A stretch of DNA of 64,000 bases from Candidatus Peribacteria bacterium. Lineage in GTDB: Bacteria; Patescibacteriota; Gracilibacteria; Peribacterales; Peribacteraceae. The first letter of the stretch is position 1. Each line of letters starts with the position of its first letter. The position numbers were made by a program, and so were the translations under genes. Of this stretch, positions 19,350 to 51,435 are shown piece after piece. The stretch covers positions 31,236 to 95,235 of the forward strand of contig JABICL010000034.1 of the NCBI GenBank assembly GCA_018652265.1, in the 5' to 3' direction. The notes under the pieces were generated by a model. The model did not search any database. It was not told the origin of the DNA and saw nothing but the letters and a program-made list of their open reading frames with translations.

Positions 19350-20545
19350 GTCGTCTTAATAACATTTATATATTGATTTACCATCCTCTCAACAGAAAAT
19401 CTTTCTCTAGCACTTTTTTCTCCATTTCTAGACAGTTTCTCCAAAACTTCTTCTTTCTGAATTTCTGTAATTGCAGCTTTAATTTTATTACTACTTCCTG
19501 CAGGAACAATAATTGAATCCTCCGAGGAGATATGCCTAGAGATTCCACATGCATCTGTACATATAGTAGGAATTCCTCGCATCATTGCTTCGGCAATCAC
19601 TAGTCCAAAAGGATCATTTTCTCTGCTTGGCAAAACCAGACAATCTATCCGATTATAAAATTCTTCTATATTGGGAATTGATTCCACAAGCTCAATTTTT
19701 TGCTGCCCACTTGTTTGTTTTTGTATATTGCAGCGAGAACAGGCTTTTATAAGCTTATTTCTCTCAGGTCCATTTCCAACTATCTCTAGCTCCACATTCG
19801 AAAGATCTTTTATGGCTTCTATAAGCAGATCTACTCCTTTGTCGTAAGTTAAGCGAGAAATACAGCCTATGCGGAAATTTCTAGCTTTCCTAGGGTGAAC
19901 ATTGTTGCTCTCCTCGACCGAGTCCGCCGAGGCGGACGAGTGGAGAGGCGCCTCTCGATTCAGCTCCTTGCTAGGAGCTTCACTCGAGGAAAGCCTTGTT
20001 TCCACTCCATTAGGAATAGAAATCACATCCTCCTCTCTCCACCCCATATCCAAATAAATATCTCTGCTCAGGTCAGATACCGTAACTGTAGTTGCTAGCC
20101 TGCTTAGTTTGCGAAGACGCGGAAGCCATGGATTCCACTTAAGCCATCTTCCTACTTTATCATGTTCGACCCAGATTACTTTTATGTTGTTTTGAATGCA
20201 CCACTCTGTGAGTAGAAGTTTTTCGCTTAGGCTCAACATGAAAACCGTGCTCAGTGTTCCGCGTTCCGCGTTCAGTGCTTCTATAAGCTTTTTCTTCATA
20301 CCTTTCTTCCGCCATAAGAAACTAATTGCATTCCACTTAGTAACTGGCGGGGGATCAATATTCAATTCTTTCATGCGGTCCGCGGTCCGCGGTCCGCGGA
20401 CCGCTCGTAATAGTGTTTTACAATCTCCCAAAAACTCAACTTCATAACCTCTCTCTCCCAGTCCTTTCATTAAACTCAGCGTCTGCACCTCCGCCCCGCC
20501 GAAACGAGATTCAAGTGGAAATCTGGTAAATAGGACTTTCTTCAC
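19316..20545 (-). CDS. Glycosyltransferase family 4 with three in-frame repeat insertions
   Basis: GGAEVQ, IPNGV, SRLTYDKG, DPFGLVIAEAM. Confidence 0.9.
   Translation of the reverse strand: MKKVLFTRFPLESRFGGAEVQTLSLMKGLGERGYEVEFLGDCKTLLRAVRGPRTADRMKELNIDPPPVTKWNAISFLWRKKGMKKKLIEALNAERGTLSTVFMLSLSEKLLLTEWCIQNNIKVIWVEHDKVGRWLKWNPWLPRLRKLSRLATTVTVSDLSRDIYLDMGWREEDVISIPNGVETRLSSSEAPSKELNREAPLHSSASADSVEESNNVHPRKARNFRIGCISRLTYDKGVDLLIEAIKDLSNVELEIVGNGPERNKLIKACSRCNIQKQTSGQQKIELVESIPNIEEFYNRIDCLVLPSRENDPFGLVIAEAMMRGIPTICTDACGISRHISSEDSIIVPAGSSNKIKAAITEIQKEEVLEKLSRNGEKSARERFSVERMVNQYINVIKTTNEKCTMKNVQ
19884..19994 (-). repeat. In-frame palindromic element (family A), 111 bp
   Basis: GCTTTCCT...AGGAAAGC termini; encodes LSSSEAPSKELNREAPLHSSASADSVEESNNVHPRKA. 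Confidence 0.9.
20247..20280. repeat. In-frame degenerate heptamer run
   Basis: gtgctca gtgttcc gcgttcc gcgttca gtgctt; peptide LNAERGTLS. Confidence 0.65.
20375..20404. repeat. In-frame heptamer run (GCGGTCC)n
   Basis: Encodes AVRGPRTADR; same unit as 38841-38870. Confidence 0.85.
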
Positions 20546-20619
20546 CGGTATAAATTAACATGTTATTAGATTGGGCGCGTGCTTCAAAAAGGGAATATGA
20601 AGAGCGCTTTGAGCAAGAA

Positions 20620-20722
20620 GTAGCATGCGCGTCCCGCGCATGAGGTCAAATGGGCGTCCTCGCCCACGTTTACCGCGGGCACGATGCCCGCATGACCTCA
20701 TCGCCGAGGACGGCGATGCTAC
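20620..20722. repeat. GTAG-type REP doublet with four hairpins
   Basis: GTAGCATGCGCG-TCC-CGCGCATG...CATCGCCG-AGGA-CGGCGATGCTAC; inner ATGAGGTCA/TGACCTCAT stem. Confidence 0.75.
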
Positions 20723-20728
20723 GCCGTC

Positions 20729-23386: not shown

Positions 23387-23446
23387 CTTTATAAGGATAG
23401 CATTTTATTTATGTTTACATTGTAAATTCCTGTTAGAATCATGCAT

Positions 23447-23986: not shown

Positions 23987-23995
23987 GATACCGAT

Positions 23996-24229
23996 ATGAC
24001 AAAAAGAGAACTCACAGGCGATGAAGCTAGACAACTCATAGACGATATTTTATCTAGAACGAATGATCCTTTTATAATGCATTTAAGTTGGAAGCGATCT
24101 GGAGAGAAGGACAAGATAGAACAACACTTAAGTTTTCATGGAACTTGGAATTCACAGGAGATCCTTGCGACGGGGAAGGGGAGAAATCAGCAGATACAAG
24201 AGATTGTTATGCGGAGTTTGGGAAAATAG
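23996..24229 (+). CDS. Hypothetical protein
   Basis: 77-aa ORF 9 nt after pduO. Confidence 0.5.
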   Translation: MTKRELTGDEARQLIDDILSRTNDPFIMHLSWKRSGEKDKIEQHLSFHGTWNSQEILATGKGRNQQIQEIVMRSLGK

Positions 24230-24238
24230 TCGAAGCAT

Positions 24239-26212: not shown

Positions 26213-26255
26213 GAAGAGGAATTGTATGTGTAAATTAAAACACAGGAAAGAAAAA

Positions 26256-26400
26256 TAAGTACTTTAGGTACTTTATGTACATTAGGTAATTTAGGTACAT
26301 ATTTAATACGAGAAATTAAATCCTACCTAAGATACCTAAGATACCTAAGATACCTAAGATACCTAAGATACCTAAGATACCTAAGATACCTAAGATACCT
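26256..26400. repeat. Inverted nonamer-arm cassette with perfect (TACCTAAGA)x8 array
   Basis: Five degenerate TAGGTACTT units, palindromic core ATTTAAT-N7-ATTAAAT, then 8 perfect TACCTAAGA units. Confidence 0.9.
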
Positions 26401-26415
26401 TATACTACCCCTCGT

Positions 26416-29301
26416 ATGATTAAAAAAATTCAAAACTATCTGTCACATGTATTTTTTCTGGCTCTGGTCGTATGGGGCATTTATGCAACGTTAGTGTTTT
26501 TGGGTATAGATGCACACATAGTTGTCCTTCTAGAAGATGAAGCATGGAAATCTATAGCTAAGGATATTCCACAAAAACAGGGGGAATTTCCTCCGGCTGC
26601 GTTTTTGAGAGGGTTAAATGCTCTAGTGCCTATGGTTCAGCATTTTATATCTAGAGCTAGACCATTTCTTGCTTACGGAGTGGTTAGTGCTTTAATTTAT
26701 TTGTTATATGTGTGTTATACAGTTCTTGTAAAGGGAAGGCTTTTTATAGATAAAAAGGTAAATGCTCTACATTTAATTATTTTATTCTTTGGAAGTACAT
26801 GGCTTGTATTTACTACTCTTTTTTATGTTGATGTTCCAAATTTACTTCCCAGTCTTATACTTGAGCCTTCAAGAGAGTCTTTAAATGATTCAGTTTCCGA
26901 AGAGGCATTTGTTGTATTAAAAGAAAATTTCAAGAGATTGGAAGAGTCTGGATGTATTATTCAAGATAAAGAGGGCAGAAAAACTGGAGCTGGAGCAAAT
27001 GCATACTGGTATCAGGGCATTTGTGTTCAGAAAGCATTCTTTACCAGAGTTATGTCTCAGGCTTTTATGCTTATGTTTTTGATATTGAATTTCCTTGTTA
27101 TAGGTAAATTCTTGCTTAAGCTTTTTAAGTTCAAGACATCAAAATTATTAGAATTTGCTATGAGTTTAGGTTTGGGTGCAGCAGGAGTTACTATGATAAT
27201 TTGGATATTGGCACTTATTAAGATTTTAAATTCTGCTACTGCATGGGTAGTTCTTATTGCTATTCCAATAATTGGATATCCGTATGTTTCTTATTGGATA
27301 AAATCAATTTTGCATTCCAACTGGAAATACAAAACATCATTCTTATCTGCAAAAAATATTATTATCTGGCTTCTTATTACATATCTAGCATTTAACTTCT
27401 TAACAGTTGTAAGGCCATTTCCTATTGGATGGGATGATCTTGGTAGATATATAAATGGGCCAAGACAAGTAAGTGTATTTGGCCATATTATTCCTGGAAT
27501 GCTTGCTGCACAGTGGGAATATCTAACGTCTTTGGGGTTTGTATTGTTTGGTTATTATTCAGCTTTTGGGGCAACACTTGCTCAGCAAATTAATTGGATG
27601 GCAGGACTTTTTGCAACATTTGCTGTGTTTATTTGTGCAAGAAGTGTTTTGGGTGATGGCAAAGGAATATTTGCTGCCCTCTTCTATTACACATTACCAA
27701 TGGCTGGTCATTTCTCGTTTGCAGATATGAAAACTGAGAATGCACTACTCTTTTATGGGGCGCTTGGTATTACCGCAGTTGTTATTTGGATAAAAAATAG
27801 AGAAAAAGAAGAGCAAGATGGAAATGGAATGAAGTGGTTGTTTGTTGCGGGAATTTTATTTGCTGCAGGAGTTGCTACCAAGCCTACGATTGTTCTTATG
27901 TTTCTTATGGCAGGAACCATGATTACATTCGATGTATTGGGAGTTTCTAGTGGTATAGGATCAATATTTCTTGGCACTCTTATACTTACAAAATCTAGGG
28001 CAATCAGCTTATCCAAGATAGCGGAAAAATTGGGGATACTAGACGTTTCATTGTTTAGTACTTTTGTGACTATCTCTCTCCTTGTGATTGGTGTTGCACT
28101 ATTTGTAATGCCACTTGTTTATTCAAGGAAAAAATCAAATACAAAAGCAAAACTTGCGGAACACAAGTTCTATTGGAAGAGCGTTATGGTTATTGTAGTT
28201 GGTTTTATGATTTTCTCGGGGCCATGGATGGTTAGAAATATGGGGGCTAATAAAATGATAAATGTGTCTGCATTACTTGGTGCGCCAAATACGATTACTC
28301 CTATGATTGTATATAGCGAAGAAATGCTTCCTGATAATGCTCCTGAAGGATCGAGATTTTTGCCTCCTGAATTGGCAGTAGATCCTGATCATGAAAGATG
28401 TATAGGTACTTCTGAGCAAGAAGAGTTAGATAGATATTGGGGATATGGTGCTGGATTTAGTCATTTCCTTAAATTGCCATGGAGAGTGATTATGAATGTA
28501 GATTCTCAGGGGTACTACCTCACAACTTCTCCATTATTACTTCTTGTTCCATTATTACTTCTGGCGCCAATCTTTTGGAGGAAGAGAATTCTTAGATTGA
28601 TATTCTGGGGGACACTTGCATATGTTTTCCAATGGATTCTCGCAGCCAGTGGTATCCCTTGGTATGGAATAGGAATGTTCCTTGGCCTTGCCATATGTGT
28701 TGAAGCTGTTTTATTTGGTTCAAAAGATAAGGCTTCCAGGATAGTAGGAGGGACTTTGTGTGTTGTTGCAATACTTATGGTCCTATCTCTTAGGCTTTGG
28801 CAATTTTCCATGCAAATGAATTTGCATGAGTATTCATGGGGAAAAGCTTCCTTTGAAGTGCTTAGAGAGATGACTATTCCTGATTACGATAATATTACAG
28901 AAAATGTTGTTGAGCTTTCCAAGAATAAGGAAACACCTTATCTATATAGGATGGGAACTTTTATAAGTTATTTCATTCCACGCAATAGGGAAATTATTAC
29001 GCTAAATGATAATCAGCTTGTCTTTTTTAATTGTATAAACCAAGAGGGAGATCATCTTCTTACTTTAAAGAGACTTAAGGCATTAGGATTTCATAGTATA
29101 GTTTTTGATACGAATACTGCGACCATAGAAAAAGATCAAAACGGAACTCTTCATCAGAAGGTAAATAATTTTATGGATTTTGCAAATGATGAAAGTACGG
29201 GAATTATATCTGTGGTGAATAATCCAGGAGGGGGGATTGCTTATATGATACTTCCGGAGAGCGTTGAGATTGATGAGGATGCTGTAGATGTAGAGGAGTG
29301 A
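26416..29301 (+). CDS. Large polytopic membrane protein, GT-C/PMT-like glycosyltransferase
   Basis: Many TM helices; PIGWDDLGRY acidic loop and KTE...K motifs resembling ArnT/PMT_2. Confidence 0.6.
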   Translation: MIKKIQNYLSHVFFLALVVWGIYATLVFLGIDAHIVVLLEDEAWKSIAKDIPQKQGEFPPAAFLRGLNALVPMVQHFISRARPFLAYGVVSALIYLLYVCYTVLVKGRLFIDKKVNALHLIILFFGSTWLVFTTLFYVDVPNLLPSLILEPSRESLNDSVSEEAFVVLKENFKRLEESGCIIQDKEGRKTGAGANAYWYQGICVQKAFFTRVMSQAFMLMFLILNFLVIGKFLLKLFKFKTSKLLEFAMSLGLGAAGVTMIIWILALIKILNSATAWVVLIAIPIIGYPYVSYWIKSILHSNWKYKTSFLSAKNIIIWLLITYLAFNFLTVVRPFPIGWDDLGRYINGPRQVSVFGHIIPGMLAAQWEYLTSLGFVLFGYYSAFGATLAQQINWMAGLFATFAVFICARSVLGDGKGIFAALFYYTLPMAGHFSFADMKTENALLFYGALGITAVVIWIKNREKEEQDGNGMKWLFVAGILFAAGVATKPTIVLMFLMAGTMITFDVLGVSSGIGSIFLGTLILTKSRAISLSKIAEKLGILDVSLFSTFVTISLLVIGVALFVMPLVYSRKKSNTKAKLAEHKFYWKSVMVIVVGFMIFSGPWMVRNMGANKMINVSALLGAPNTITPMIVYSEEMLPDNAPEGSRFLPPELAVDPDHERCIGTSEQEELDRYWGYGAGFSHFLKLPWRVIMNVDSQGYYLTTSPLLLLVPLLLLAPIFWRKRILRLIFWGTLAYVFQWILAASGIPWYGIGMFLGLAICVEAVLFGSKDKASRIVGGTLCVVAILMVLSLRLWQFSMQMNLHEYSWGKASFEVLREMTIPDYDNITENVVELSKNKETPYLYRMGTFISYFIPRNREIITLNDNQLVFFNCINQEGDHLLTLKRLKALGFHSIVFDTNTATIEKDQNGTLHQKVNNFMDFANDESTGIISVVNNPGGGIAYMILPESVEIDEDAVDVEE

Positions 29302-30608: not shown

Positions 30609-31808
30609 ATGAAAACCATTCTACTCATCTCCCCCTATTGGAAAGAGCCGCATCGTTGGATGGTAAGTTCTGTAAAACTTGCAGAGCTTTGGCAAAGAAT
30701 GGGATATAAAGTAGTTGTTGTATGTATGGGGGCGAAAACAGAGAAAGAAGTAGTCTCGGAAACTCTCACTATTTATAGGGTGTGGGATTTCTTTTTGCCA
30801 GACCCTTTAAACTATGGAATATCTCCAGGATTTTTCTTTAAAGTTTTAAGGGTTTTAAAAAACGAAAAGCCAGACATCGTAATTGTAAATAAGATTCTTT
30901 TCTGGACTTCTTTGATTGTTCCTTGGCTTAGAATTCTTGGAAAAAAGCCAATCGTTACTACGGATGCACTTGTAGGAGTTACCTGGCAGCCTAGAGGAAT
31001 AATTCCAAAAGTCATTATGTCTATTGGAGGATGGACGGCTGGATGGAAAGTAATGCTTTTTGCCAAAAAATTAGTATTTTTTCATCCGCAGCCGGATAAG
31101 ATTTTGAAAATGATGGGGGTTTATGGAAAATCAATTGTGATTCCTACGGGGATAGATAGTCGAGCTTTCCTTAACAAGCTCTCCTCGAGTGAGTCCGCCA
31201 GCGGGCGGACGAATCGAGAGGCGCCTCTCCACTCGTCCGCTAAAGCGGACTCGGTCGAGGAGAGTTACAATATTCATGCGAGGAAAGCTCAAACCGTGAC
31301 TTATGTTGGACGATTAGAATCTGTAAAAGGTGTAGATGATTTTCTCGCAGCGACAGTGCCTCTAAAAAAAGATTATCCAGATCTAAATATTCAAGTTGTT
31401 GGATATTGTAAGCCAGGGAATACGATCGTAAGGCAATATGAAGGTAGCGTGAAATTCACAGGATTGCGTGATGATATTCCAGAGATTCTAAGTAGCTCAG
31501 ATATATTCGTCTTACCAAGTTATAGTGAAGGCCTTAGTAATGCTCTCATGGAAGCTATGTCTTCTAGGTGTGCATGTATTGCTACCGGTGTAGGCGGTAA
31601 TAAATATTTAATAGAAGACTCAGTATCTGGATTACTATTTAAGCCAGGGGATATCGAGGCTCTTAGATCTCATGTAAGAAGCCTGATAGACAATCCTTCA
31701 AGGATAGAGGGATTAGGAAATGCAGCCAGGGCCCGCATAGAGGATATGTTTGACTGGAGCGTAATCGAGAGTAAATATGCTGAACTTTTTAACGAGCGGG
31801 CCAATTAA
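30609..31808 (+). CDS. Glycosyltransferase family 4 with in-frame palindromic insertion
   Basis: IPTGID, YVGRLESVKG, SEGLSNALMEAM. Confidence 0.9.
   Translation: MKTILLISPYWKEPHRWMVSSVKLAELWQRMGYKVVVVCMGAKTEKEVVSETLTIYRVWDFFLPDPLNYGISPGFFFKVLRVLKNEKPDIVIVNKILFWTSLIVPWLRILGKKPIVTTDALVGVTWQPRGIIPKVIMSIGGWTAGWKVMLFAKKLVFFHPQPDKILKMMGVYGKSIVIPTGIDSRAFLNKLSSSESASGRTNREAPLHSSAKADSVEESYNIHARKAQTVTYVGRLESVKGVDDFLAATVPLKKDYPDLNIQVVGYCKPGNTIVRQYEGSVKFTGLRDDIPEILSSSDIFVLPSYSEGLSNALMEAMSSRCACIATGVGGNKYLIEDSVSGLLFKPGDIEALRSHVRSLIDNPSRIEGLGNAARARIEDMFDWSVIESKYAELFNERAN
31162..31290 (+). repeat. In-frame palindromic element (family A), 129 bp
   Basis: GAGCTTTCCT...AGGAAAGCTC termini; encodes AFLNKLSSSESASGRTNREAPLHSSAKADSVEESYNIHARKA. 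Confidence 0.9.
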
Positions 31809-31882
31809 CAATGTACAATGAAAAATGAATAATAAAGGAAATCTTCCATAATTATTCATTGTTAATTATTAATTATTCATTA
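31802..31882 (+). repeat. 81-bp 5x7/core/5x7 cassette
   Basis: caattaa caatgta caatgaa aaatgaa taataaa GGAAATCTTCC ataatta ttcattg ttaatta ttaatta ttcatta. Confidence 0.85.
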
Positions 31883-32842: not shown

Positions 32843-32923
32843 AAATGAACAATGAATAATTAACAATGAATAATAAAGGAAATCTTCCATAATTGTTAAT
32901 TGTACATTGTTCATTGTTAATTA
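32843..32923 (+). repeat. 81-bp 5x7/core/5x7 cassette
   Basis: aaatgaa caatgaa taattaa caatgaa taataaa GGAAATCTTCC ataattg ttaattg tacattg ttcattg ttaatta. Confidence 0.85.
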
Positions 32924-32976
32924 GCATGTTCCACTAATGAACACTCAATGAGTTGTTTTGCTGTAATATATCAATC

Positions 32977-34017
32977 ATGAAGAAGGTAGTGATCTTGTCG
33001 GCATTTCTCTCTCCTTACAGAAGTGGAGCAGAAGCATGCGTAGAAGAGGTGGCTATAAAACTGTCTAAATATTTCGATGTAACTATAGTTACTAGTAAGA
33101 AGTTTTCTGGAGAAGATAAAAAACTTAGAGGTATTGTTTCTATAAAGAGAGTTGGCTTGGGATTATCTATAGATAAATGGCTATTTCCCATATTTGCTCC
33201 ATTTGCAGTAAGAAAATTACGACCAGATATCACGCATGCGATACTTGAGACTTTTGCGGGACTTACTCTTCACTTTTGTAAGTATGCCGATAAAGAAACC
33301 AAGAGAATTTTAACTCTGCAAACTACGAATAGAAGTTTTCTAAAAGGCATGATAATCAGGTCTGCAGATAAAGTTACTGCAATAAGTAAAGCATTGGTGA
33401 AAATTGCAGGGGAGTTAGGTAGAAATGATGTTGTTTTGATTCCGAATGGTGTGAATATATCTCAGTTATGTAATTCTGTTTCGAAGACTGATGGAAGTAT
33501 CCTATTCGTTGGAAGATTAGAAAAAATGAAAGGAATAGATATCTTGATGCAAGCCTTCAAAAAAGTTTCAGAGAAAAATAGTGAAGCAAAATTGCGGATA
33601 GTGGGGGATGGATCACAGAGAAAGACTCTGAAGAGTCTGGCTTATGAGTTGGGAATAAAAGACAAAGTAACTTTTACGGGGAAATTATCTCCAAATGAGG
33701 TTTACGAAGAATATGGTCACGCACAAATCTTTTGTGGACTCTCTAGATCTGAGGCTTTTGGAAATGTATTTATAGAAGCTCAAGCTGCAGGATGTGCTGT
33801 TGTAGGAACTAGCATCGGAGGAATCCCAGATACTGTAGAACAAGGTGTTACAGGACTTCTGGTAAAACCAGATGACGTCGATGGTGCAGTAGAAGCTCTG
33901 GAAAGGCTACTTAGCGATGCAGATCTAAGGAATAAATTAAGTGAAAATGGGAGAAAAAATGCAGAGAAATATGACTGGGCAAATATTGCACAGCAATATG
34001 CGGAGTTATATAGTTAG
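32977..34017 (+). CDS. Glycosyltransferase family 4 (insertion-free linker)
   Basis: SGAE, IPNGVN, FVGRLEKMKG, EAFGNVFIEA. Confidence 0.9.
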   Translation: MKKVVILSAFLSPYRSGAEACVEEVAIKLSKYFDVTIVTSKKFSGEDKKLRGIVSIKRVGLGLSIDKWLFPIFAPFAVRKLRPDITHAILETFAGLTLHFCKYADKETKRILTLQTTNRSFLKGMIIRSADKVTAISKALVKIAGELGRNDVVLIPNGVNISQLCNSVSKTDGSILFVGRLEKMKGIDILMQAFKKVSEKNSEAKLRIVGDGSQRKTLKSLAYELGIKDKVTFTGKLSPNEVYEEYGHAQIFCGLSRSEAFGNVFIEAQAAGCAVVGTSIGGIPDTVEQGVTGLLVKPDDVDGAVEALERLLSDADLRNKLSENGRKNAEKYDWANIAQQYAELYS

Positions 34018-34239: not shown

Positions 34240-34965
34240 TTAAATATTTTTCACAATCTCTTCAGCCCTCTCAAGAGCCTCAAAAGTCCCTGCGTCTATC
34301 CAGTCCTTTTCGATAACAGTAGCAGTTAATTCGTTGCGATCTAGATATGCCTTGCTTACATCTGTAATTTCTAATTCTCCACGATCAGATGGATTAAGAG
34401 TTTTTATAATCTCAAAACAATCTCCTGCAAACAGATAACATCCAGTCACTGCTAAATTAGACTTCGGGGTTTCAGGTTTCTCTTCAAGCGATATCACTTC
34501 ACTGATCGCGGATCGCGGATCGCGGATCGCGGTTTCTGCTACTCCAAATCTCTCTGGATCATCTACTTCTTTTAGAAATAGATGTCCTCCATTTCCTTCG
34601 AAAGCTTTTATATCTTCAGATAAATTGTTTGCGAAAATATTATCGCCAAGCATGGCACACACAGGCTCTTCGTCTGCAAAAGATTCTGCAAGTGCCAGAG
34701 CATGAGCTATTCCTTTTGGCTCATCCTGAATTCTGTATGTGAAATCACAACCAAACTTTGCTCCAGATCCCAAAAATTGCATAAAGTCTCCTGCGAATGT
34801 GGGGCCTGTAATTAGCATAATATCTGTGATTCCTGCATCTAGTAGAACTTTGAGTGGATAGTGAATAAGTGGCTTGCCACCGACCTTTAGTAGACTCTTG
34901 TGAGTAGTGTCTGTAAGAGGCTTGAGCCTAGTTCCCGATCCGCCGCAGATAAGAATTCCTTTCAT
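34240..34965 (-). CDS. rmlA: Glucose-1-phosphate thymidylyltransferase-like sugar nucleotidyltransferase
   Basis: MKGILICGGSGTRLKP, LGDN, EEKP, RGELEITD, WIDAGT; the extension to 35097 in the ORF track is repeat-derived. Confidence 0.85.
   Translation of the reverse strand: MKGILICGGSGTRLKPLTDTTHKSLLKVGGKPLIHYPLKVLLDAGITDIMLITGPTFAGDFMQFLGSGAKFGCDFTYRIQDEPKGIAHALALAESFADEEPVCAMLGDNIFANNLSEDIKAFEGNGGHLFLKEVDDPERFGVAETAIRDPRSAISEVISLEEKPETPKSNLAVTGCYLFAGDCFEIIKTLNPSDRGELEITDVSKAYLDRNELTATVIEKDWIDAGTFEALERAEEIVKNI
34504..34531. repeat. In-frame (GATCGCG)x4
   Basis: Encodes AIRDPRSAI in the hairpin turn between FGVAE and VISLEEKP. Confidence 0.9.
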
Positions 34966-35015
34966 AGTGTCGACATTATAACACTCCGCTCGCGTGCTTA
35001 AGGTGGTATTTCGCT

Positions 35016-35122
35016 TAGGTGGGAGCCAAGTCGCTCTCCTCGAGTGAGTTGTGCTGCCTCTCGACGTCCGCCTGTGGCGGACGCTCGAGGAAAGCACAAC
35101 GAATCGAGAGGTGTCGAAGCAT
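35016..35122 (+). repeat. Intergenic compound A-in-B element (5'-truncated relative of 42210)
   Basis: TAGGTGGGAGCC-AAGTC-GCTCTCCTCGAGTGAGTTGTGCTGCCTCTCGA...GAATCGAGAG-GTGTCGAAGCAT. Confidence 0.85.
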
Positions 35123-38401: not shown

Positions 38402-39454
38402 GTGACATTACTGTTCATAACACAGAAATTACATCAGCAGGATGCTTTCGTATCTCTGTGGGTTCGTGCATTTATGAGGCGCGGATATACGGTAAAAGTT
38501 TTGTGTTTAGAAAACAAATTAGATGTCACTTCACGTAAAGATGCTTCGCATCCACGTGACATGGATTTCGAAATATATTCGATGGGCAAAGAAAAGGGTT
38601 ATGGAAGAATTCGTCAAATATTAAGATTTTTGAAATTTATTTGGTCTTTGAAATATAATTCAGTATTTGTGCATATGGCTCCAATATATGGCGCACTTGG
38701 ATCTTGGTTTTGGATTATAAAAAGAATTCCTGTGTATCTTTGGTATACACACTACAAAAGAAGTTTCTCTATGAGAATTGTAGAGAGGTTCGTAAAAAGA
38801 ATTTTCTGTGCAACTTCTCAGAGTGTTCCATGGCTAGAGAGCGGACCGCGGACCGCGGACCGCGGACCGCAACTTCCAATATATAAAAAGGTAGTTGTTG
38901 GTCATGGTATTGATCTAAGTTTCTGGAAAAAGAAAGAAAACATCACGTCTAATCCAAGGGAATTGCTCGTTGTGCATAGATTATCCAGATCTAAGCGTCT
39001 AGAAATAAACATTAGAGCAGTAAAACTTCTTCCAGAGGATTACACTATGGTGATCTACGGCATAGAAGCCGAAAAAGATTATGTTTCTGAGCTTAAGCAG
39101 CTGGTTAAAGACCTAGGTCTAGAATCTAGAGTTAAATTTGTGGGTACTACACCTATGAATACTCTTCCTGAGATATATAGTTCGCATAAATTAATTTTAA
39201 ACATGGCATCGGAAACGATAGATAAGACAATGCTCGAATCTATGACATGTGGGTGTTATCCAGTAACAACACATGCGAATTCGGAGGCTATTGGTATATC
39301 CGAATCTCCAGGATCAGATACTCCAGAGGCAGTTTCTAAGTTTGTGCAGGAATTTCAGGGGGTGGATGCAGATGAGTTGTATAGAGTTGTGGCAGAGAAT
39401 CACGGTTTGGAGGGGTTAATCGAAAAGATGGATAAATACATTAAGCCAATTTAG
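38402..39454 (+). CDS. Glycosyltransferase family 4 with two in-frame repeat insertions
   Basis: GHGID, HRLSRSK, DKTMLESM. Confidence 0.85.
   Translation: MTLLFITQKLHQQDAFVSLWVRAFMRRGYTVKVLCLENKLDVTSRKDASHPRDMDFEIYSMGKEKGYGRIRQILRFLKFIWSLKYNSVFVHMAPIYGALGSWFWIIKRIPVYLWYTHYKRSFSMRIVERFVKRIFCATSQSVPWLESGPRTADRGPQLPIYKKVVVGHGIDLSFWKKKENITSNPRELLVVHRLSRSKRLEINIRAVKLLPEDYTMVIYGIEAEKDYVSELKQLVKDLGLESRVKFVGTTPMNTLPEIYSSHKLILNMASETIDKTMLESMTCGCYPVTTHANSEAIGISESPGSDTPEAVSKFVQEFQGVDADELYRVVAENHGLEGLIEKMDKYIKPI
38523..38562. repeat. In-frame palindrome ATGTCAC...GATGC-TTC-GCATC...GTGACAT
   Basis: Encodes DVTSRKDASHPRDM; GCGAAGC mini-hairpin on the - strand. Confidence 0.6.
38841..38870. repeat. In-frame (GCGGACC)x4
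   Basis: Encodes SGPRTADRGPQ. Confidence 0.9.
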
Positions 39455-41563: not shown

Positions 41564-42061
41564 ATGTCACACATTCACGAAACTGCCATAGTCTCATCTG
41601 ACGCTACTCTTGGAGAGGGGGTTAGCATTTGGCACCATACTGTTGTGCGTGAAAATGTAAAAATAGGAGACAATTGTGTGATAGGAGGTAATGTTTACCT
41701 AGATGAAGGAGTTGTTATTGGAAACAATGTAAAAATACAAAACAATGCATGTATTTATAGAAAAGCTGTTATAGAGGATGGAGTTTTTATAGGTCCTGGT
41801 GCGATGATCATAAATGACAAAGTGCCACGAGCTGTAACTCCAGATGGAAAGCTAAAAGATGCTAGCGAATGGGAATGTGGAACCGTTACTGTAAAGCGCG
41901 GTGCTGCGATTGGTGCAGGAAGTATTATCTTGCCGGATATTACTATTGGTGAACGCGCAATGGTTGGAGCTGGAGCAGTAGTAACAAAAGATGTTGCAGA
42001 TAAAATGCTAGTAGTCGGAAATCCAGCTAAAGAACATGGGAATGCTCCGGATGCTTCTTAG
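41564..42061 (+). CDS. Left-handed beta-helix N-acetyltransferase (WbpD-like)
   Basis: Hexapeptide repeats, IWH, VKIQNN, NDKVPRA, GNPA. Confidence 0.88.
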   Translation: MSHIHETAIVSSDATLGEGVSIWHHTVVRENVKIGDNCVIGGNVYLDEGVVIGNNVKIQNNACIYRKAVIEDGVFIGPGAMIINDKVPRAVTPDGKLKDASEWECGTVTVKRGAAIGAGSIILPDITIGERAMVGAGAVVTKDVADKMLVVGNPAKEHGNAPDAS

Positions 42062-42209
42062 ATCTCCGCTCGCATGCTGAATGTTACATATTGAGCCGAA
42101 ATTTCGCAGGGCTATATTTCTAAATCTTTACATTGTATTTGCAAATCTAAAGTGATCTCTGCTGACAAATTTCTTACTCAATATGCAACCTGCATGCTTG
42201 CTACTAATA

Positions 42210-42386
42210 TGTCATGCTGCCTGCCCGCCGAAGTCCGCCGCGGCGGACGTAGGCGGGAGCCAAATAGCTTTCCTCGAGTGAGTTGTGCTGCCTCTCGACT
42301 TTCGCCTGCGGCGAAAGCTTCCTCCTTCGCTAAAGCTACGGACGACAGGCGAGGAAAGCACAACGAATCGAGAGGTGTCGAAGCAT
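42210..42386 (+). repeat. Multiply nested compound palindromic element
   Basis: Family B ends split by a CCTG-hairpin (42220-42257); contains a family A element that is itself interrupted by a second CCTG-hairpin (42320-42349). Confidence 0.9.
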
Positions 42387-42394
42387 TATTTGCA

Positions 42395-43135
42395 TTAACC
42401 ATGCTCTTTCTTGAATTTATTATCCAATTCAGCACGTTTTTCTAATGCCCTATTCAAATTATCTATAGCTTTTGTACATTTTTCAGGAGAAATATTAGCA
42501 ATTGCAGAAATTTTATCTGCTTGAGTTTCGCCATTTGCAAACCACCATATTGGATGAGAGAGAAATTGGAAGCTTTTACCTTCTTCTATCAAATCAAGTG
42601 GCGTTTTTTCTCGCCACTGCATTGAGCTATCCGACACATATGCAAATTGTGATCGAATTTTTTCGCTATATGCTTCGTTTGTAATTAAATTTTCAATGTT
42701 TAGATGAAGACTATTAGTTGGATCATGTTGAGCGGCAGATGAAACTTGCTCTCCGATTAGATCAGACAACATCTGCATGTCTTTTGTAAAATCTTTTTCA
42801 TATTCCTCTGGATTATATTTGCTAGTGTCGTAATGCAATCCTATTTCGTGTCCTAAATTTTGCATGTGTTGAATTTGCTCTTTTCCAATATCAGAAAAAG
42901 GATCATAAAATTCATTTTCTGGAATTACGAAGTAAGTAGAAGAGATTCCAAGCTCGTTTTCTAGTTCTGCCATTTGAACTGCATATTCCAAGGAAAAATC
43001 GATGTCGTGACGTAGGAGTAATACAGGATCAGATTTGCTTGTAATAGCATCCTGCATAGGCAGAATGGTAAATTTGGTGGAAAGCGCTTTTTCAATCAAG
43101 GCGCGATATGACGTAGGATTAAATGAGATATTCAC
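42395..43135 (-). CDS. Polysaccharide deacetylase-like protein
   Basis: LLRHDIDF, HEIGLHYD, LSHPIWW. Confidence 0.65.
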   Translation of the reverse strand: MNISFNPTSYRALIEKALSTKFTILPMQDAITSKSDPVLLLRHDIDFSLEYAVQMAELENELGISSTYFVIPENEFYDPFSDIGKEQIQHMQNLGHEIGLHYDTSKYNPEEYEKDFTKDMQMLSDLIGEQVSSAAQHDPTNSLHLNIENLITNEAYSEKIRSQFAYVSDSSMQWREKTPLDLIEEGKSFQFLSHPIWWFANGETQADKISAIANISPEKCTKAIDNLNRALEKRAELDNKFKKEHG

Positions 43136-45147: not shown

Positions 45148-46268
45148 GGATTTGTTCCATAGTTTCTGCTCGGCCAAATTTTGTGAAGCTCGCAGGCGTG
45201 GTGCATGCATTCAAGTGTCATGCTGAGGAGGAGCGAAGCGACGTCTCGAAGCATAAACACTTCATAATCCACACAGGCCAACACTCAGATCCTTTGTTTT
45301 CTGACATCTTCTTCAAGGAACTTGATATTCCAGATCCAGATTATAATTTGGGCGTAAAGAGTGCAGGAAATAATGAAGAAACTATCAAAGCAACTTCCGA
45401 AGCTTGCGTCGATGCTCTGAAAGATGCAAATCCTGATGTTGTTTTGGTTTACGGAGATGTATCTGGAGCACTTGGTGGCGCACTTGCTGCAAAAGAAATT
45501 GGAATTCCAGTTGCTCACGTCGAAGCAGGGCTTCGGTCAGGTGATATGGATATGCCAGAAGAAAGAAATAGAATAGAAATAGATAAAATTGCTAAATATT
45601 TATTTGTTACTGAAGAATCAGGACGAAAGAATTTAGAAAAAGAGGGGATAGAGGGAGAGGTTCATTTTGTGGGCAATACGATGATAGATACTTTGATTCG
45701 GATGCAGAAAAATGTGTTTGATTTCAAAAGACCATTTGATTATCCAGATAAATTTGGATTGGTAACTTTGCATCGTCCAAGTAATGTTGATTCAAAAGAT
45801 AATCTGAAGAAAAACATAGATTTTCTAAACGAAGTTGCAGAAAAAAAAGAATTGATATTCCCAATCCACTTAAGAACCAAGTCTGCACTAGAAAATTATA
45901 ATCTATATTCAAAATTATCTGACAAAATAATAAAAAAAGACCCGCTAGGGTACATAGATTTTCTAAAATTAATACATTTATCAGATTTTGTACTTACAGA
46001 TTCGGGAGGCATTCAAGAAGAAACCACTTTTTTGGGAGTTGAATGTTTTACTCTTAGGAAAAACACTGAGCGCCCAGCTACAGAGAGTAAAAATGGTGGG
46101 ACAAATCATTTGATAGATATAGATAAAAAGGAGGGCAAGGATTTAGTACTAGAATTTGCTGAGGAAAATATAAATTACAACGAAAGATCTATGAGACTAA
46201 TGGATGGGAAAGGCCCTGAAAACTGGGACGGAAAAGCGGGAGAAAAAATCATAAAAATTCTAACTTAA
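45144..46268 (+). CDS. wecB: UDP-N-acetylglucosamine 2-epimerase (non-hydrolysing; WbpI-like)
   Basis: ARPNFVK, HTGQH, HVEAGLRS, MPEERNR, TDSGGIQEE, TERP. Confidence 0.9.
   Translation: MRICSIVSARPNFVKLAGVVHAFKCHAEEERSDVSKHKHFIIHTGQHSDPLFSDIFFKELDIPDPDYNLGVKSAGNNEETIKATSEACVDALKDANPDVVLVYGDVSGALGGALAAKEIGIPVAHVEAGLRSGDMDMPEERNRIEIDKIAKYLFVTEESGRKNLEKEGIEGEVHFVGNTMIDTLIRMQKNVFDFKRPFDYPDKFGLVTLHRPSNVDSKDNLKKNIDFLNEVAEKKELIFPIHLRTKSALENYNLYSKLSDKIIKKDPLGYIDFLKLIHLSDFVLTDSGGIQEETTFLGVECFTLRKNTERPATESKNGGTNHLIDIDKKEGKDLVLEFAEENINYNERSMRLMDGKGPENWDGKAGEKIIKILT
45215..45254 (+). repeat. In-frame family B element
   Basis: GTGTCATGCTGAGGAGGAGCGAAGCGACGTCTCGAAGCAT encodes CHAEEERSDVSKH; 2 mismatches to the intergenic copy 574-535. 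Confidence 0.92.
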
Positions 46269-47008: not shown

Positions 47009-47746
47009 TTATGAAAAGATGTGAAAGTGCCACATTTTCATTTTGTGTAATCTATACCTCAGCGAGGTAAAAATAACACCAAATCCATATTTTATGCAGC
47101 GAATAAAATTAATTGAGGATGCTTCAGGAAAATATTTTGTTGGACATGAAACCTCACCTATGAAAAATTTTTTCATAAATATTTGTGATAGCATCTGGTT
47201 ATCAAATATAAAGTCGTTAGAGTTTTTTTGAAAATTTACGCTTTTCAAAACATCTCGAGAGAATGCCCTATAGCCTGTGTGGTACTCAGATAATTTTTCC
47301 CACAGCAATAAGTTTTGTATGCCAGTCAAAAATCTATTTGCAAAATACTTCCATATTGGCATGCCGCCACGCAGGGCATGCCCTCCAAGAATCCTCGATG
47401 CTATTACTGCATCGTAAGGTCCATCTACTATCATTGCGCATATTGCTATTACTAAATGTGGATCATATTGATAATCCGGATGTACCATGACAACTATATC
47501 CGCACCATGTTCCAATGCTGTTTTATAACATGTTTTTTGATTAGCTCCGTATCCTAGATTGTCGGTATGAATAACGGTTTTTATCCCAAGTCTATTTGCT
47601 ACATTGACAGTATTATCTTTGCTGCAGTCATCTACAAGTATTATCTCATCCACTACGTCATGTGGTATGTCTCTGTATGTTGCTTCCAGTGTTGCCTCAG
47701 CGTTGTATGCTGGCATGACGACAATAATCCTATTGTTGTGTAGCAT
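47009..47746 (-). CDS. GT2, polyprenol-phosphate sugar synthase-like
   Basis: MPAYNAE, GYGANQKTCY, HPDYQYDP, EYHTGYRA. Confidence 0.9.
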   Translation of the reverse strand: MLHNNRIIVVMPAYNAEATLEATYRDIPHDVVDEIILVDDCSKDNTVNVANRLGIKTVIHTDNLGYGANQKTCYKTALEHGADIVVMVHPDYQYDPHLVIAICAMIVDGPYDAVIASRILGGHALRGGMPIWKYFANRFLTGIQNLLLWEKLSEYHTGYRAFSRDVLKSVNFQKNSNDFIFDNQMLSQIFMKKFFIGEVSCPTKYFPEASSINFIRCIKYGFGVIFTSLRYRLHKMKMWHFHIFS

Positions 47747-47782
47747 ATGTGTATTCTATAGGTATTTTTAGTAACCATCATA

Positions 47783-50149: not shown

Positions 50150-50184
50150 ATTTTGTATAGCAGTGAATCGCTCGCTTGCTATCA

Positions 50185-51435
50185 TCAAGTTTGAAAAAAC
50201 TTTAAATAATTTTCTATCTGTTTTTCTAGAGAAAACTTTTCTTCAATGAGTTTTCTGCCTGCCTTTCCCATTTCTATTGCTCTATTTCGATCAGAAAGTA
50301 GGTAGTCTAATTTTTTTGCAAATGTTTTAGTATCAAATGGATCTACGATAAATCCGGTTTGCTCATCTAGAATCAATTCTTTCGATCCTCCATAGTGAGT
50401 TGCAATTACTGGCTTTCCAAGTGCCATAGCTTCTAGATTTACAGTAGGAAAAGAGTCAAAGCATATAGATGGGGTAACACATATGTCACAATTAGATATT
50501 GCTTCTATGAATTCTTTTCTCCTGAGCTTTCCTGTGAATTTTATTTTGTCTACCAAATCTTCTGAATGTCTATATTTATTTGTAAGAGCTTCTGCTTTTG
50601 ATTTATCTCCTGCAATTACAATTGATGCCTCTGGATGAGAGCTTTTGATGAGTCTAAAAGCATCAAGTAGCTGATATAAGCCTTTGTCTCGGTTCATTCG
50701 ACCTCCGAAGAAGATAGTTTGTTTATCTGAGGCTTTCCTCGAGTGAGGCTCTTCGCAAAGAGCTGAATCGAGAGGCGCCTCTCCACTCGTCCGCCTGAGG
50801 ACGGACTCGGTCGAGGAGGGCAGATCTATGCCATTGTAAATTACATCATCAATTTCTATGCCATTTGCTTCCAATGCATCTTTTAGCGCATGGCTTACTG
50901 CTATTTTTACATCTACTTTCTTAAGAATGCGTTTTATAAAGAAGTTTCTTAGTGGATTCCAAAGTATTCCAGCTTGTTTTATGTGATCTATGAAACTTAG
51001 TTTGTAATTGAAGTTTTTTAGATATTTATCCGTTGCAAGTCTTCCATAAGAAAAGCTCATTACGTCATGAAATGTGATTACAACTTTTTTTGCATGCTTC
51101 TTTGCAATTTTCAGTGAATTATATGTAAGAAGCTGATGCACATTATGTGCATGGACAATGTCATATGATCCATTTTCCTTGAAAAACTTTTTTATAAGCT
51201 TAGAAGCTTTAGGATTCCAAATACTTAAGTAAGCTCTCCATCTCGAATCATAAGATATTGGTATATATGAGATTTTGTATGGACTACTAATCGCTAATCG
51301 CTTACCGCTAATCGCTGTCAAAACATCTACCTCATGTCCCTGCTCAACATACCCTTCAGCAAGTTGAGATGCTATTTGCCCTGCTCCTCCATCACAATTT
51401 GGAGGGAAATCATCATTTAGAATTAAAATTTTCAT
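50185..51435 (-). CDS. Glycosyltransferase family 4 with two in-frame insertions
   Basis: GGAG, HAHN, IYNGID, GGRMNRDKG, DSFPTVNLEAM. Confidence 0.9.
   Translation of the reverse strand: MKILILNDDFPPNCDGGAGQIASQLAEGYVEQGHEVDVLTAISGKRLAISSPYKISYIPISYDSRWRAYLSIWNPKASKLIKKFFKENGSYDIVHAHNVHQLLTYNSLKIAKKHAKKVVITFHDVMSFSYGRLATDKYLKNFNYKLSFIDHIKQAGILWNPLRNFFIKRILKKVDVKIAVSHALKDALEANGIEIDDVIYNGIDLPSSTESVLRRTSGEAPLDSALCEEPHSRKASDKQTIFFGGRMNRDKGLYQLLDAFRLIKSSHPEASIVIAGDKSKAEALTNKYRHSEDLVDKIKFTGKLRRKEFIEAISNCDICVTPSICFDSFPTVNLEAMALGKPVIATHYGGSKELILDEQTGFIVDPFDTKTFAKKLDYLLSDRNRAIEMGKAGRKLIEEKFSLEKQIENYLKFFQT
50732..50821 (+). repeat. In-frame family A element, opposite orientation relative to the host gene compared with the other GT4 copies
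   Basis: GCTTTCCTCGAGTGAGGCTCTTCGCAAAGAGCTGAATCGAGAGGCGCCTCTCCACTCGTCCG...GGTCGAGGAGGGC; read as PSSTESVLRRTSGEAPLDSALCEEPHSRKA. Confidence 0.9.
51287..51316. repeat. In-frame (CTAATCG)n run
   Basis: ctaatcg ctaatcg cttaccg ctaatcg; encodes AISGKRLAIS. Confidence 0.8.

What the first reader, a model, noticed from the sequence alone, without database searches (positions are those of the whole stretch)
19884..50821. Same palindromic element inserted in frame three times at the GT4 interdomain linker
Copies at 19884-19994 (111 bp), 31162-31290 (129 bp) and 50732-50821 (90 bp) are all multiples of 3. Each core is a head-to-head doublet of a unit GCTYTCCTCGA-[variable hairpin]-TSGAGAGGC, fused at GAGAGGCGCCTCTC. 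In three divergent GT4 paralogues it lies just after the (I/V)-P/Y-N/T-G-(V/I) motif and before the G-R strand, which is the linker between the two Rossmann domains. The paralogues at 32977 and 53846 have a short linker there. The 50732 copy is in the opposite orientation relative to its host yet still reads open, and the inner hairpins covary rather than being conserved. This suggests independent insertions kept at one permissive site, adding 30-43 aa.
Basis: partly seen in the sequence, partly recalled or inferred. Interest (0 to 1): 0.85.

Follow-up and report, generated by a model that had tools for sequence, protein, structure and literature searches.

The report
Palindromic repeat invading glycosyltransferase linkers
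A small GC-rich hairpin-forming repeat that is scattered through this tiny marine bacterial genome sits in frame inside many ordinary genes, including the hinge between the two halves of three different glycosyltransferases, much as the palindromic elements of Rickettsia do.

Summary
Three 88-90 bp head-to-head doublets lie at 19907-19994, 31178-31265 and 50732-50821. Each is in frame in the interdomain linker of a GT4 glycosyltransferase. The three hosts are only 22-29% identical, and the third copy is inverted relative to its host.

The nearest homologues of each host (58-75% identity, plus one syntenic locus for GT4a) lack the insert. AlphaFold2 models were made for two of the three hosts; in each the insert is the only low-confidence segment.

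The copies belong to a genome-wide family:
- 81 units at 59 loci in a 1.07 Mb, 38% GC genome whose homologues are CPR (Peribacteria/Peregrinibacteria-like).
- 27 loci lie deep inside long ORFs of housekeeping genes, and all three reading frames are used.
- Intergenic copies sit next to gene 3' ends.
- Hairpin stems covary strongly, while the unit termini are conserved.
- The family also occurs, again in frame, in two other genera of the same taxonomic family (one further genus has a single in-frame unit).
- I found no RAYT, TnpB or DDE_Tnp_1 gene, no target-site duplication and no Rfam match.

Best reading: a non-autonomous palindromic mobile element. It resembles REPINs in anatomy and Rickettsia palindromic elements in behaviour. 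It inserted separately into a permissive linker.

Permissiveness alone does not explain three hits in about 780 nt of GT4 linker. A target preference, or some non-independence between copies, remains open.

The parts
19907..19994 (-). Canonical 88-bp doublet (X unit plus inverted Y unit in gene sense) in the linker of GT4a
   Evidence: The syntenic orthologue L142 lacks it.
19884..19906 (-). Extra degenerate terminus-like tail 3' of the GT4a doublet in gene sense. It encodes ..NNVHPRKA.
   Evidence: In my own count it matches the GT4b tail at 19 of 24 bases. It is absent from the orthologue P0126.
19316..20545 (-). GT4a host gene (409 aa, P0001)
31178..31265 (+). Canonical 88-bp doublet in the linker of GT4b, with the same orientation and reading phase as in GT4a
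   Evidence: The homologue P0247 is 30 aa shorter at this point.
31162..31290 (+).
   Evidence: Comparable duplicated 15-nt termini occur at three other loci.
30609..31808 (+). GT4b host gene (399 aa, P0002). The insert is the only low-confidence stretch of the model (residues 191-224).
50732..50821 (+). Canonical 90-bp doublet in the linker of GT4c. It is inverted relative to its host (Y unit plus inverted X unit in gene sense).
   Evidence: The nearest homologue P0006 has a 16-aa linker against 36 aa here.
50185..51435 (-). GT4c host gene (416 aa, P0003). The low-confidence stretch of the model is residues 215-235.
57620..57698 (+). Another member of the family (nested single-hairpin type). 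It is in frame between the N- and C-terminal domains of a carbamoyltransferase (56428-58332).
35033..35111 (+). Family member at the 5' edge of ORF 34240-35097(-), in the spacer before ORF 35183
42267..42386 (+). Family member, partly degenerate, in the intergenic spacer 42061-42395
32953..34017 (+). GT4 paralogue without insert (short linker)
53846..54943 (-). GT4 paralogue without insert (short linker)

Best explanation
The three copies belong to a family of short, GC-rich, non-autonomous palindromic DNA elements. That family has multiplied in this small AT-rich genome, whose homologues are CPR (Peribacteria/Peregrinibacteria-like).

The building block is a 38-47 nt unit. It has conserved termini (GCTYTCCTCGA ... 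GAGAGG) around a hairpin whose sequence varies but whose pairing is kept. Two inverted units form an 84-116 bp doublet that folds into a cloverleaf or a long hairpin.

Copies that land in genes survive only if the net change keeps the frame, has no stop codon and falls in a tolerated surface segment. The result is an extra, probably disordered, loop of 20-30 residues that is translated with the protein.

The hinge between the two Rossmann-like domains of GT4 enzymes is such a tolerated site. It was hit separately in three paralogues.

Shown here: the family and its copy number; its in-frame residence in many genes; its absence from the orthologues; the covariation of the hairpins; and the location of the inserts in the protein model.

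Inferred: mobility, since no moving enzyme and no empty-site allele were seen; translation of the insert; and independence of the first two copies.
For: Family size and placement:
- 81 units in the genome against 0 for the reversed control pattern.
- These form 59 loci and 31 doublets.
- 27 loci lie in ORFs of at least 250 aa, at least 35 aa from the start and 25 aa from the end.
- All 23 host proteins scanned have Pfam families. They include 6PGD, transketolase, LeuRS, Mur ligases, CarA, GatA, UvrD, KsgA and ComEC.
- All three reading phases are used in forward-oriented units, so no single peptide is conserved.

Insert absent from orthologues:
- GT4a against P0126 (71% identity): linker 18 aa against 42 aa.
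- GT4a against the syntenic locus L142 (77-83% nucleotide identity): the window has 72 extra nt.
- GT4b against P0247: +30 aa.
- GT4c against P0006: +20 aa.

Independence of the copies:
- The hosts are 22-29% identical.
- The nearest relative of each copy is at a non-GT4 locus, at 93%, 87% and 92% identity.
- GT4c's copy is inverted.

Structure of the element:
- Hairpin cells paired: 106/108, 209/216 and 75/77, with 19, 32 and 16 double-change cells. 0 of 1000 shuffles reach these values.
- RNA folding energies are -41 to -63 kcal/mol, with z-scores of -2.4 to -7.8.

Permissive site:
- In the AlphaFold2 models the only segments with pLDDT below 50 are residues 191-224 of P0002 and 215-235 of P0003.
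- Other homologues carry their own insertions in this same linker.

Selection filter:
- None of the 32 loci that are not deep in an ORF looks like a split gene.
- About 20 gene 3' ends lie 0-40 nt from an element.

Same behaviour elsewhere:
- Units with the same termini occur in G123 (14 units) and G097 (9 units), among 200 genomes of the same taxonomic family.
- They are in frame there in RecG, PurH, UvrC, UvrA, a Mur ligase and CarA; a single unit in G101 lies in frame in Der.
Against: - No enzyme that could move the element was found in this genome. There are 0 matches for Y1_Tnp, the TnpB zinc-ribbon domain and DDE_Tnp_1. Other transposase families were not searched.
- There is no target-site duplication and no target consensus.
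- No empty-site allele was seen in public contigs.
- Three hits in about 780 nt of GT4 linker is about 19 times the non-coding density (post hoc). A pure model of random insertion plus filtering therefore fits poorly.
- GT4a and GT4b share phase, orientation, the 2-nt centre (5 of 31 doublets have it) and an extra tail.
- The net length changes (+72, +90, +60 nt) are not clean insertions of one element, so native linker residues were lost or rewritten.
- Translation of the insert was not observed.
Confidence: 0.7

Rival explanations
1. Insertion is targeted rather than random. The element, or whatever moves it, prefers some feature of linker-encoding DNA, for instance a pre-existing GC-rich hairpin repeat. 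On this view the recurrence at the GT4 hinge reflects target choice more than tolerance.
For: - GT4 linkers are occupied at about 19 times the non-coding density.
- The syntenic orthologue of GT4a carries a different GC-rich heptamer/hairpin repeat at exactly this linker.
- CarA is hit in its interdomain linker in two genera, at different positions and by different unit types.
- Duplicated or nested termini at several loci suggest that elements land in or next to elements.
Against: - The flanks of the 31 doublets show no consensus. There is only a weak preference for T or A next to the ends.
- The three insertion points differ, at 2-8 residues after the NG motif.
- The statistic is post hoc.
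- The other 10 of the 13 GT4 genes are not hit.
Confidence: 0.25
2. The copies are not independent. One insertion spread to the other GT4 paralogues by ectopic recombination or gene conversion within this 31-kb gene cluster.
For: - Three of the five doublets with the 2-nt CG centre are the GT4 copies.
- GT4a and GT4b share orientation, phase and a 3' tail that is 19/24 identical in my count.
- GT4a and GT4c are 91% identical, which is within the top 1% of all doublet pairs.
Against: - The flanking coding sequence is only 22-29% identical at protein level, so there is no homology to drive conversion.
- The best match of each copy is at an unrelated locus.
- GT4c's copy is inverted.
- The positions within the linker differ.
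Confidence: 0.12
3. The hairpins are kept for a function of their own at domain boundaries and gene ends. They might act as RNA structures that slow the ribosome between domains, or that stabilise or terminate messages. On this view the coded peptide is incidental.
For: - Stems covary while the peptide frame is free.
- The structures are very stable.
- At least six host types have the element between two Pfam domains: GT4 three times, CarA, transketolase and carbamoyltransferase.
- In relatives it lies between the two GTPase domains of Der and between the CarA domains.
- Intergenic copies sit next to stop codons.
Against: - REPIN-type selfish elements also conserve hairpins, for recognition by their transposase (PMC3116915, abstract and passages).
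- About half of the intragenic copies lie inside domain envelopes.
- Close orthologues function without the element.
- Distribution is patchy, in 3-4 of 84 genera.
- There are no expression data.
Confidence: 0.07
4. The insert predates the duplication of the GT4 paralogues, or it is removed at the RNA level like an intron and never reaches the protein.
For: All three copies share the same linker. The structured RNA could in principle be a processing signal.
Against: - The orthologues of each paralogue lack the insert.
- The family is found in only 5 of 200 genomes of the taxonomic family.
- Every intragenic copy is in frame and free of stop codons, and no gene-splitting copy was seen. Removal from RNA would not require either.
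- There is no Rfam family match in the window apart from a tRNA.
Confidence: 0.03

Closest known systems
Rickettsia palindromic elements (RPEs)
   Same: Both are dispersed palindromic repeats in a small, AT-rich, host-dependent bacterial genome. Both sit in frame in many unrelated housekeeping genes and are thought to be tolerated at structurally harmless sites. No transposase is known for either. (RPE facts come from passages of the review PMC10969869, which cites Ogata et al. 2000. I did not read that paper.)
   Different: - RPEs are about 150 bp, and each family codes a conserved peptide. Here the units are 38-47 nt and doublets are typically 84-100 bp.
- Here all three reading frames are used, hairpins vary by compensatory change, and about half of the loci are intergenic next to gene ends.
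- The host phylum is different.
- Sequence relatedness to RPEs was not tested.
REPINs (REP doublets forming hairpins) with RAYT transposases
   Same: Both have short imperfect palindromic units arranged as inverted doublets around a variable spacer. Both are predicted to fold as hairpins in single-stranded DNA or RNA, and both have singlets and doublets. Neither has a target-site duplication, though for REPINs that point is recalled. (PMC3116915, abstract and passages.)
   Different: - REPs are almost wholly extragenic. In the cited genome 14 of 1,067 16-mers overlap genes. Here about half of the loci are intragenic.
- No Y1/RAYT gene is found in this genome.
- Y1_Tnp is common in the taxonomic family, in 134 of 200 genomes, so its presence in the three other carrier genomes says nothing.
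Bacterial MITEs (Correia/NEMIS, ERIC, BOX and others)
   Same: They are small and non-autonomous, have terminal inverted repeats, and occasionally form in-frame fusions with host ORFs (PMC10969869, passages).
   Different: No target-site duplication is seen in the 31 doublets. No parent IS and no DDE_Tnp_1 gene is found. The hairpin modules are variable and covarying rather than decaying at random.
GC clusters and repetitive hairpin-forming or double-hairpin elements of mitochondrial genomes
   Same: They are GC-rich hairpin elements that spread in AT-rich compact genomes. They are mostly intergenic but sometimes lie inside rRNA and protein genes, at sites of known length variation (PMC2800124, passages; PMC4478555, search listing only).
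   Different: They are organellar and have unrelated sequences. In those genomes insertions into protein genes are the exception, whereas here they make up about half of the loci.

Membership tests
Rickettsia palindromic elements | Dispersed palindromic repeat inserted in frame in many unrelated protein-coding genes | tested here: met
   27 loci lie deep inside long ORFs. All 23 hosts scanned have Pfam families.
Rickettsia palindromic elements | Each family encodes one conserved peptide (one frame) | tested here: not met
   Forward-oriented units are read in phases 0, 1 and 2, which gives three different peptide types.
Rickettsia palindromic elements | Sequence homology to RPE families and occurrence in Rickettsiales | not tested
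   No RPE sequences were on hand. Homologues of the host proteins are from CPR lineages (Peribacteria, Peregrinibacteria, Paceibacterota).
REPIN / REP-RAYT system | Short imperfect palindromes organised as inverted doublets with a spacer | tested here: met
   There are 31 doublets. The spacer is 2-3 nt in most and 10-38 nt in others.
REPIN / REP-RAYT system | Extragenic placement | tested here: not met
   30 of 59 loci fall inside the ORF mask.
REPIN / REP-RAYT system | A RAYT (Y1 transposase) gene in the same genome | tested here: not met
   PF01797 gives 0 matches in G000, and the control genomes respond. The assembly has 48 contigs, so a missed gene cannot be excluded.
MITE | Terminal inverted repeats | tested here: met
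   GCTYTCCTCGA at one end and TCGAGGARAGC at the other.
MITE | Target-site duplication of fixed length | tested here: not met
   The flanks of the 31 doublets share no consistent direct repeat.
MITE | Parent insertion sequence or transposase with the same ends | tested here: inconclusive
   DDE_Tnp_1, Y1_Tnp and the TnpB zinc ribbon give 0 matches. Other transposase families were not searched.
GT4 glycosyltransferase (host genes) | Two Rossmann-like domains (GT-B fold) with Glyco_transf_4 and Glycos_transf_1 signatures | tested here: met
   Pfam hits on both halves. The model of P0002 matches MshA, PglA, BshA and PimA with Foldseek E-values of 1e-22 to 1e-19.

The most novel reading that the evidence does not exclude
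This is a structured mobile element of CPR bacteria that is not merely tolerated. It is aimed at, or kept at, DNA that encodes interdomain linkers and at gene ends. Its covarying hairpins act there as RNA or DNA structures, for example as pauses between domains during translation or as message ends. On this reading the element systematically remodels linkers across a minimal proteome.
Probability: 0.12. Interest if true: 0.85.

Novelty: new variant of a known kind. Interest (0 to 1): 0.62.

Why it matters
Large-scale in-frame invasion of housekeeping genes by palindromic repeats is best known from Rickettsia. Finding the same behaviour in a free-sampled marine CPR genome, with REPIN-like anatomy but no RAYT, suggests it is a recurring outcome in small AT-rich genomes.

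The three separate hits in one protein hinge, together with a second case in CarA across two genera, form a natural experiment. They show which protein sites accept 20-30 extra residues, and they bear on whether such elements choose their targets.

The conserved termini with freely covarying hairpins also give a defined substrate for finding the unknown enzyme or host process that copies the element.

Practically, such inserts inflate protein lengths, break contigs, and can mislead annotation and alignment of CPR genomes.

Tried and rejected
- **Scan of species genomes:** the unit pattern was too loose. It is uninformative (one search was a format error).
- **JGI metagenome scan:** the X-Y junction pattern gave 0 hits. 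Records near the window's own genome may be left out.
- **Search with the insert peptide (P0002 residues 181-228):** the 5.8-billion-cluster protein collection returned only the protein itself and GT4a.
- **Sequencing runs:** 18 marine or seawater DNA runs were listed, and no RNA holder was listed.
- **Laying contigs of 4 runs:** contigs end inside the repeats, no joint skips an element, and the variant letters inside the elements probably come from other copies. No empty-site allele was seen, and nothing can be concluded from that.
- **Searching the rest of the relative's contig (L142):** the record is not held.
- **RAYT association:** rejected. Y1_Tnp is present in 134 of 200 genomes of the taxonomic family and absent from G000.
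- **Target-site duplication and target consensus:** none found. An apparent AACAA repeat flanks only the GT4a and GT4b copies.
- **Rfam:** only a tRNA in the window.
- **Paralogue pairs elsewhere:**
  - The two Mur ligases are hit at non-homologous sites.
  - The two CarA copies are 92% identical and share one insertion.
  - The two FemAB proteins are hit in roughly the same N-terminal region, but the alignment there is unreliable.
- **Literature:** searches for CPR, Patescibacteria or Peregrinibacteria together with palindromic, in-frame or MITE terms found nothing relevant. Supplementary files of papers were not consulted.
Full report
**1. What is in the sequence**

The palindromic 14-mer GAGAGGCGCCTCTC occurs at 19943, 31216 and 50770 and nowhere else in the window. 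Chance expectation is 0.09, and 0 of 100 shuffles reach three.

Each site is a head-to-head pair of units. Every unit begins with GCTYTCCTCGA and ends with GAGAGG, around a short hairpin. Defined by the family's own ends, the doublets are 19907-19994 (88 bp), 31178-31265 (88 bp) and 50732-50821 (90 bp).

The hosts are intact ORFs: 19316-20545(-), 30609-31808(+) and 50185-51435(-). Each carries a Glyco_transf_4 N-terminal domain and a Glycos_transf_1 C-terminal domain, and the insert lies between the two.

In a five-way alignment the inserts follow IPNGV, IPTGI and IYNGI and precede the GR strand. The paralogues at 32953 and 53846 have short linkers there. The insertion points lie 3, 8 and 2 residues after the motif, so this is one linker but not one residue.

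In gene sense the first two copies read X unit then inverted Y unit. The third reads Y then inverted X, which is the opposite orientation.

**2. The inserts are absent from the closest relatives**

| Host | Closest relative | Difference |
|---|---|---|
| GT4a | P0126, 71% identity | linker 18 aa in P0126 against 42 aa here |
| GT4a | syntenic metagenome locus L142, 77-83% nucleotide identity over about 20 kb | coding flanks align either side; window has 72 extra nt; no unit of the family in 21 kb |
| GT4b | P0247, 58% identity | P0247 is 30 aa shorter exactly here; phmmer matches to homologues split into two stretches that skip residues 188-228 |
| GT4c | P0006, 75% identity | linker 16 aa in P0006 against 36 aa here; more distant homologues have about 25 aa |

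In place of the element, the L142 linker holds a short GC-rich heptamer repeat.

A search of the 5.8-billion-cluster collection with the insert peptide alone returned only the protein itself and GT4a.

The three hosts are 22-29% identical to each other. An insertion that predates their divergence is therefore not tenable.

**3. Where the insert sits in the protein**

- The AlphaFold2 model of GT4b has a mean pLDDT of 85.6. Its only segment below 50 is residues 191-224, between the last strand of the N-domain and the first strand (229-233) of the C-domain.
- The model of GT4c has a mean pLDDT of 89.9, with its low segment at 215-235.
- Foldseek places the GT4b model among solved GT4 enzymes, including MshA, PglA, BshA and PimA.
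- Other homologues of GT4a carry unrelated insertions at the same linker, namely P0138 and P0160.

The hinge is thus a length-variable, tolerant site.

**4. The three copies are part of a genome-wide family**

The window lies in a 1,069,784-bp assembly of 48 contigs with 38% GC. Homologues of its proteins come from CPR lineages (Peribacteria, Peregrinibacteria, Paceibacterota).

Family size and placement:
- The unit pattern occurs 81 times (42 forward, 39 reverse). The reversed control pattern occurs 0 times.
- The units form 59 loci, of which 31 are doublets.
- With a crude ORF mask (86% of the genome), 30 loci are inside ORFs, 27 are outside and 2 straddle a boundary.
- 27 loci lie in ORFs of at least 250 aa, well away from either end.

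All 23 host proteins scanned have Pfam families. They include 6-phosphogluconate dehydrogenase, a transketolase-like protein, LeuRS, two Mur ligases, CarA, GatA, UvrD, KsgA, ComEC, TsaE, a sodium:dicarboxylate symporter and, in the window, a carbamoyltransferase.

Forward units are read in all three phases, which gives three unrelated peptide types. It is therefore not a particular peptide that is being kept.

At least six host types carry the element between two Pfam domains: GT4 three times, CarA, transketolase and carbamoyltransferase. About half of the intragenic copies lie inside domain envelopes.

Among the 32 loci not deep inside an ORF, I saw no split-gene signature. About 20 gene 3' ends lie 0-40 nt from an element.

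Density in coding DNA is about six times lower than in non-coding DNA. This pattern is what purifying selection on random or near-random insertions would leave. It argues against removal of the element from RNA, because removal would make frame and stop codons irrelevant.

**5. Anatomy and structure**

Three unit types (X, Y, Z) share the termini. They differ in the bases next to the hairpin.

The centre of a doublet takes one of three forms:
- 2 nt (CG) in 5 of 31 doublets, including the three GT4 copies.
- 3 nt in most doublets.
- 10-38 nt of AT-rich sequence in the rest.

The 81 units carry 45 different stems. Pairing is kept almost perfectly through changes on both strands:

| Unit type | Cells paired | Double-change cells | Shuffles reaching this |
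|---|---|---|---|
| Y | 106 of 108 | 19 | 0 of 1000 |
| Z | 209 of 216 | 32 | 0 of 1000 |
| X | 75 of 77 | 16 | 0 of 1000 |

The copies are related, so the shuffle count overstates significance. The number of distinct compensated stems does not depend on that.

As RNA the three GT4 doublets fold into a closing stem with three hairpins, or into one long hairpin. Energies are -51, -63 and -41 kcal/mol, with z-scores of -4.5, -7.8 and -2.4. As DNA the z-scores are -2.9, -6.3 and -0.8.

There is no consistent target-site duplication and no target consensus beyond a weak T/A preference next to the ends.

**6. Are the three insertions independent?**

For independence:
- The best match of each GT4 copy is elsewhere in the genome.

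| GT4 copy | Best match | Identity |
|---|---|---|
| GT4a | doublet just upstream of the Hsp70 domain of dnaK | 93% |
| GT4b | doublet in KsgA | 87% |
| GT4c | doublet in an amidohydrolase | 92% |

- The mean over all doublet pairs is 73%.
- GT4c's copy is inverted.
- The flanking genes share no nucleotide homology that could drive conversion.

Against full independence:
- The three copies share the rare 2-nt centre.
- GT4a and GT4b share orientation, reading phase and an extra 3' tail. The tail matches at 19 of 24 bases by my count, and the orthologue P0126 lacks it.
- Similar duplicated 15-nt termini occur at three other loci. The tails may therefore be a family feature (nested or duplicated ends) rather than evidence of copying between the two genes.

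I put independent insertion at about three in four.

**7. Is a permissive site enough?**

The genome has 13 Glycos_transf_1 genes. Taking 60 nt of linker for each gives about 780 nt. At the density seen in non-coding DNA (2.0e-4 per nt) one expects 0.16 hits, against 3 observed (Poisson P = 6e-4). With a one-in-three frame filter, P = 2e-5.

By length share, the 13 genes should hold 0.44 of the 27 intragenic loci (P = 0.01).

The class was chosen after seeing the data, so these figures are indicative only. Even so, they say that tolerance alone is a weak explanation. A target preference, local spread or some benefit remains possible.

It is suggestive that the relative's GT4a linker holds another GC-rich repeat. 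It is also suggestive that CarA is hit in its interdomain linker both here and in another genus, at different positions and by different unit types.

**8. Distribution and the missing enzyme**

None of 40 relatives from other genera has the unit.

Among 200 genomes of the same taxonomic family (84 genera), 5 have a match: G000 (81 units), G123 (14), G097 (9), G101 (1) and G173 (1, which may be chance).

In G097, G123 and G101 the units have the same termini but other hairpins. They lie in frame in RecG, PurH, an M20 peptidase, UvrC, UvrA, a Mur ligase, CarA and Der. Of the 13 ORFs scanned, 12 have Pfam families.

A junction pattern found nothing in the JGI metagenome records.

G000 has no match to Y1_Tnp, the TnpB zinc ribbon or DDE_Tnp_1. 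The three other carrier genomes do have Y1_Tnp. However, so do 134 of the 200 genomes of the family, so this carries no weight.

How the element moves is therefore unknown. The conserved ends with free hairpins point to recognition of structure plus termini, as for REP/RAYT or IS200-type systems. That is an inference.

**9. Comparison with known systems**

- **In behaviour**, the closest system is the Rickettsia palindromic elements. These are repeats fixed in frame in many metabolic genes (review PMC10969869, passages).
- **In anatomy**, the closest is the REPIN: inverted doublets of short imperfect palindromes with a spacer (PMC3116915, abstract and passages).

The element fails a defining feature of each candidate family:
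- RPE: there is no single conserved peptide.
- REPIN: the element is not extragenic, and there is no RAYT.
- MITE: there is no target-site duplication and no parent IS.

Hairpin elements of mitochondrial genomes behave similarly in AT-rich compact genomes, but they rarely enter protein genes (PMC2800124, passages).

My searches found no description of such elements in CPR bacteria. This covers only the open-access library searched, and supplements were not seen.

**10. Verdict**

This is a new variant of a known kind: a palindromic, hairpin-covarying, probably mobile element family in a marine CPR genome. It lives in frame in about two dozen housekeeping genes. It has struck the GT4 interdomain hinge three times.

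Still open: the moving mechanism; whether the hinge is targeted or only tolerant; and whether the insert is translated. No RNA run was listed, and the public contigs break inside the repeats.

Noticed in passing
window 20375-20404, 34501-34544, 38841-38870; genome-wide 17 arrays; L142 10196-10217 and 10620-10634: A second GC-rich repeat family: tandem heptamers (GCGGWCC) in 3-4 copies, often inside ORFs, where they encode stretches such as RTADRGPRTAD. One array lies in the N-domain of GT4a and its orthologue. Another lies in the orthologue's linker, exactly where the window has the palindromic doublet. One CarA copy has an array that the other lacks.
   Followed up: partly
window 19270-19349, 31803-31882, 32844-32923: An AT-rich repeat of 80-100 nt sits just downstream of GT4a, GT4b and the next gene. 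The copies are 71-89% alike and partly inverted. Contigs of two runs join 19306 to 31841/31845 across these repeats, skipping 12.5 kb. This may be a repeat-induced assembly join or a real variant.
   Followed up: no
window 535-574, 6364-6476, 11088-11193, 45215-45254, 60473-60578: A third dispersed repeat family (ATGTCATGCTGAGC ... GTGTCGAAGCA). It lies mostly in spacers after genes, and the copies are 62-95% alike.
   Followed up: no
window 26315-26413: A tandem array of about ten copies of a 9-mer (TACCTAAGA) lies directly upstream of the 961-aa ORF at 26416.
   Followed up: no
G000 contigs C14:8430-9620 and C20:11661-12878: Two CarA genes are 92% identical (358 of 390 aligned residues). They lie on different contigs and carry the same family unit at the same interdomain position. 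They are either a recent duplication after the insertion or two strain variants in the assembly.
   Followed up: partly
window 30000-56000: The window is a glycan or cell-envelope gene cluster. Nine of the genome's 13 Glycos_transf_1 genes lie on this contig, eight of them within the window.
   Followed up: no
G000 C1:63089-63177 and C1:65106-65147: dnaK is bracketed by family members. A doublet lies in the open frame just upstream of the Hsp70 domain, and a single unit starts one base after the stop codon.
   Followed up: no
taxonomic family of G000 (200 genomes): Y1_Tnp (IS200/IS605-type) domains are found in 134 of 200 genomes. Several lie inside open frames of about 1000 aa, which is unusual for this small transposase domain.
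   Followed up: no
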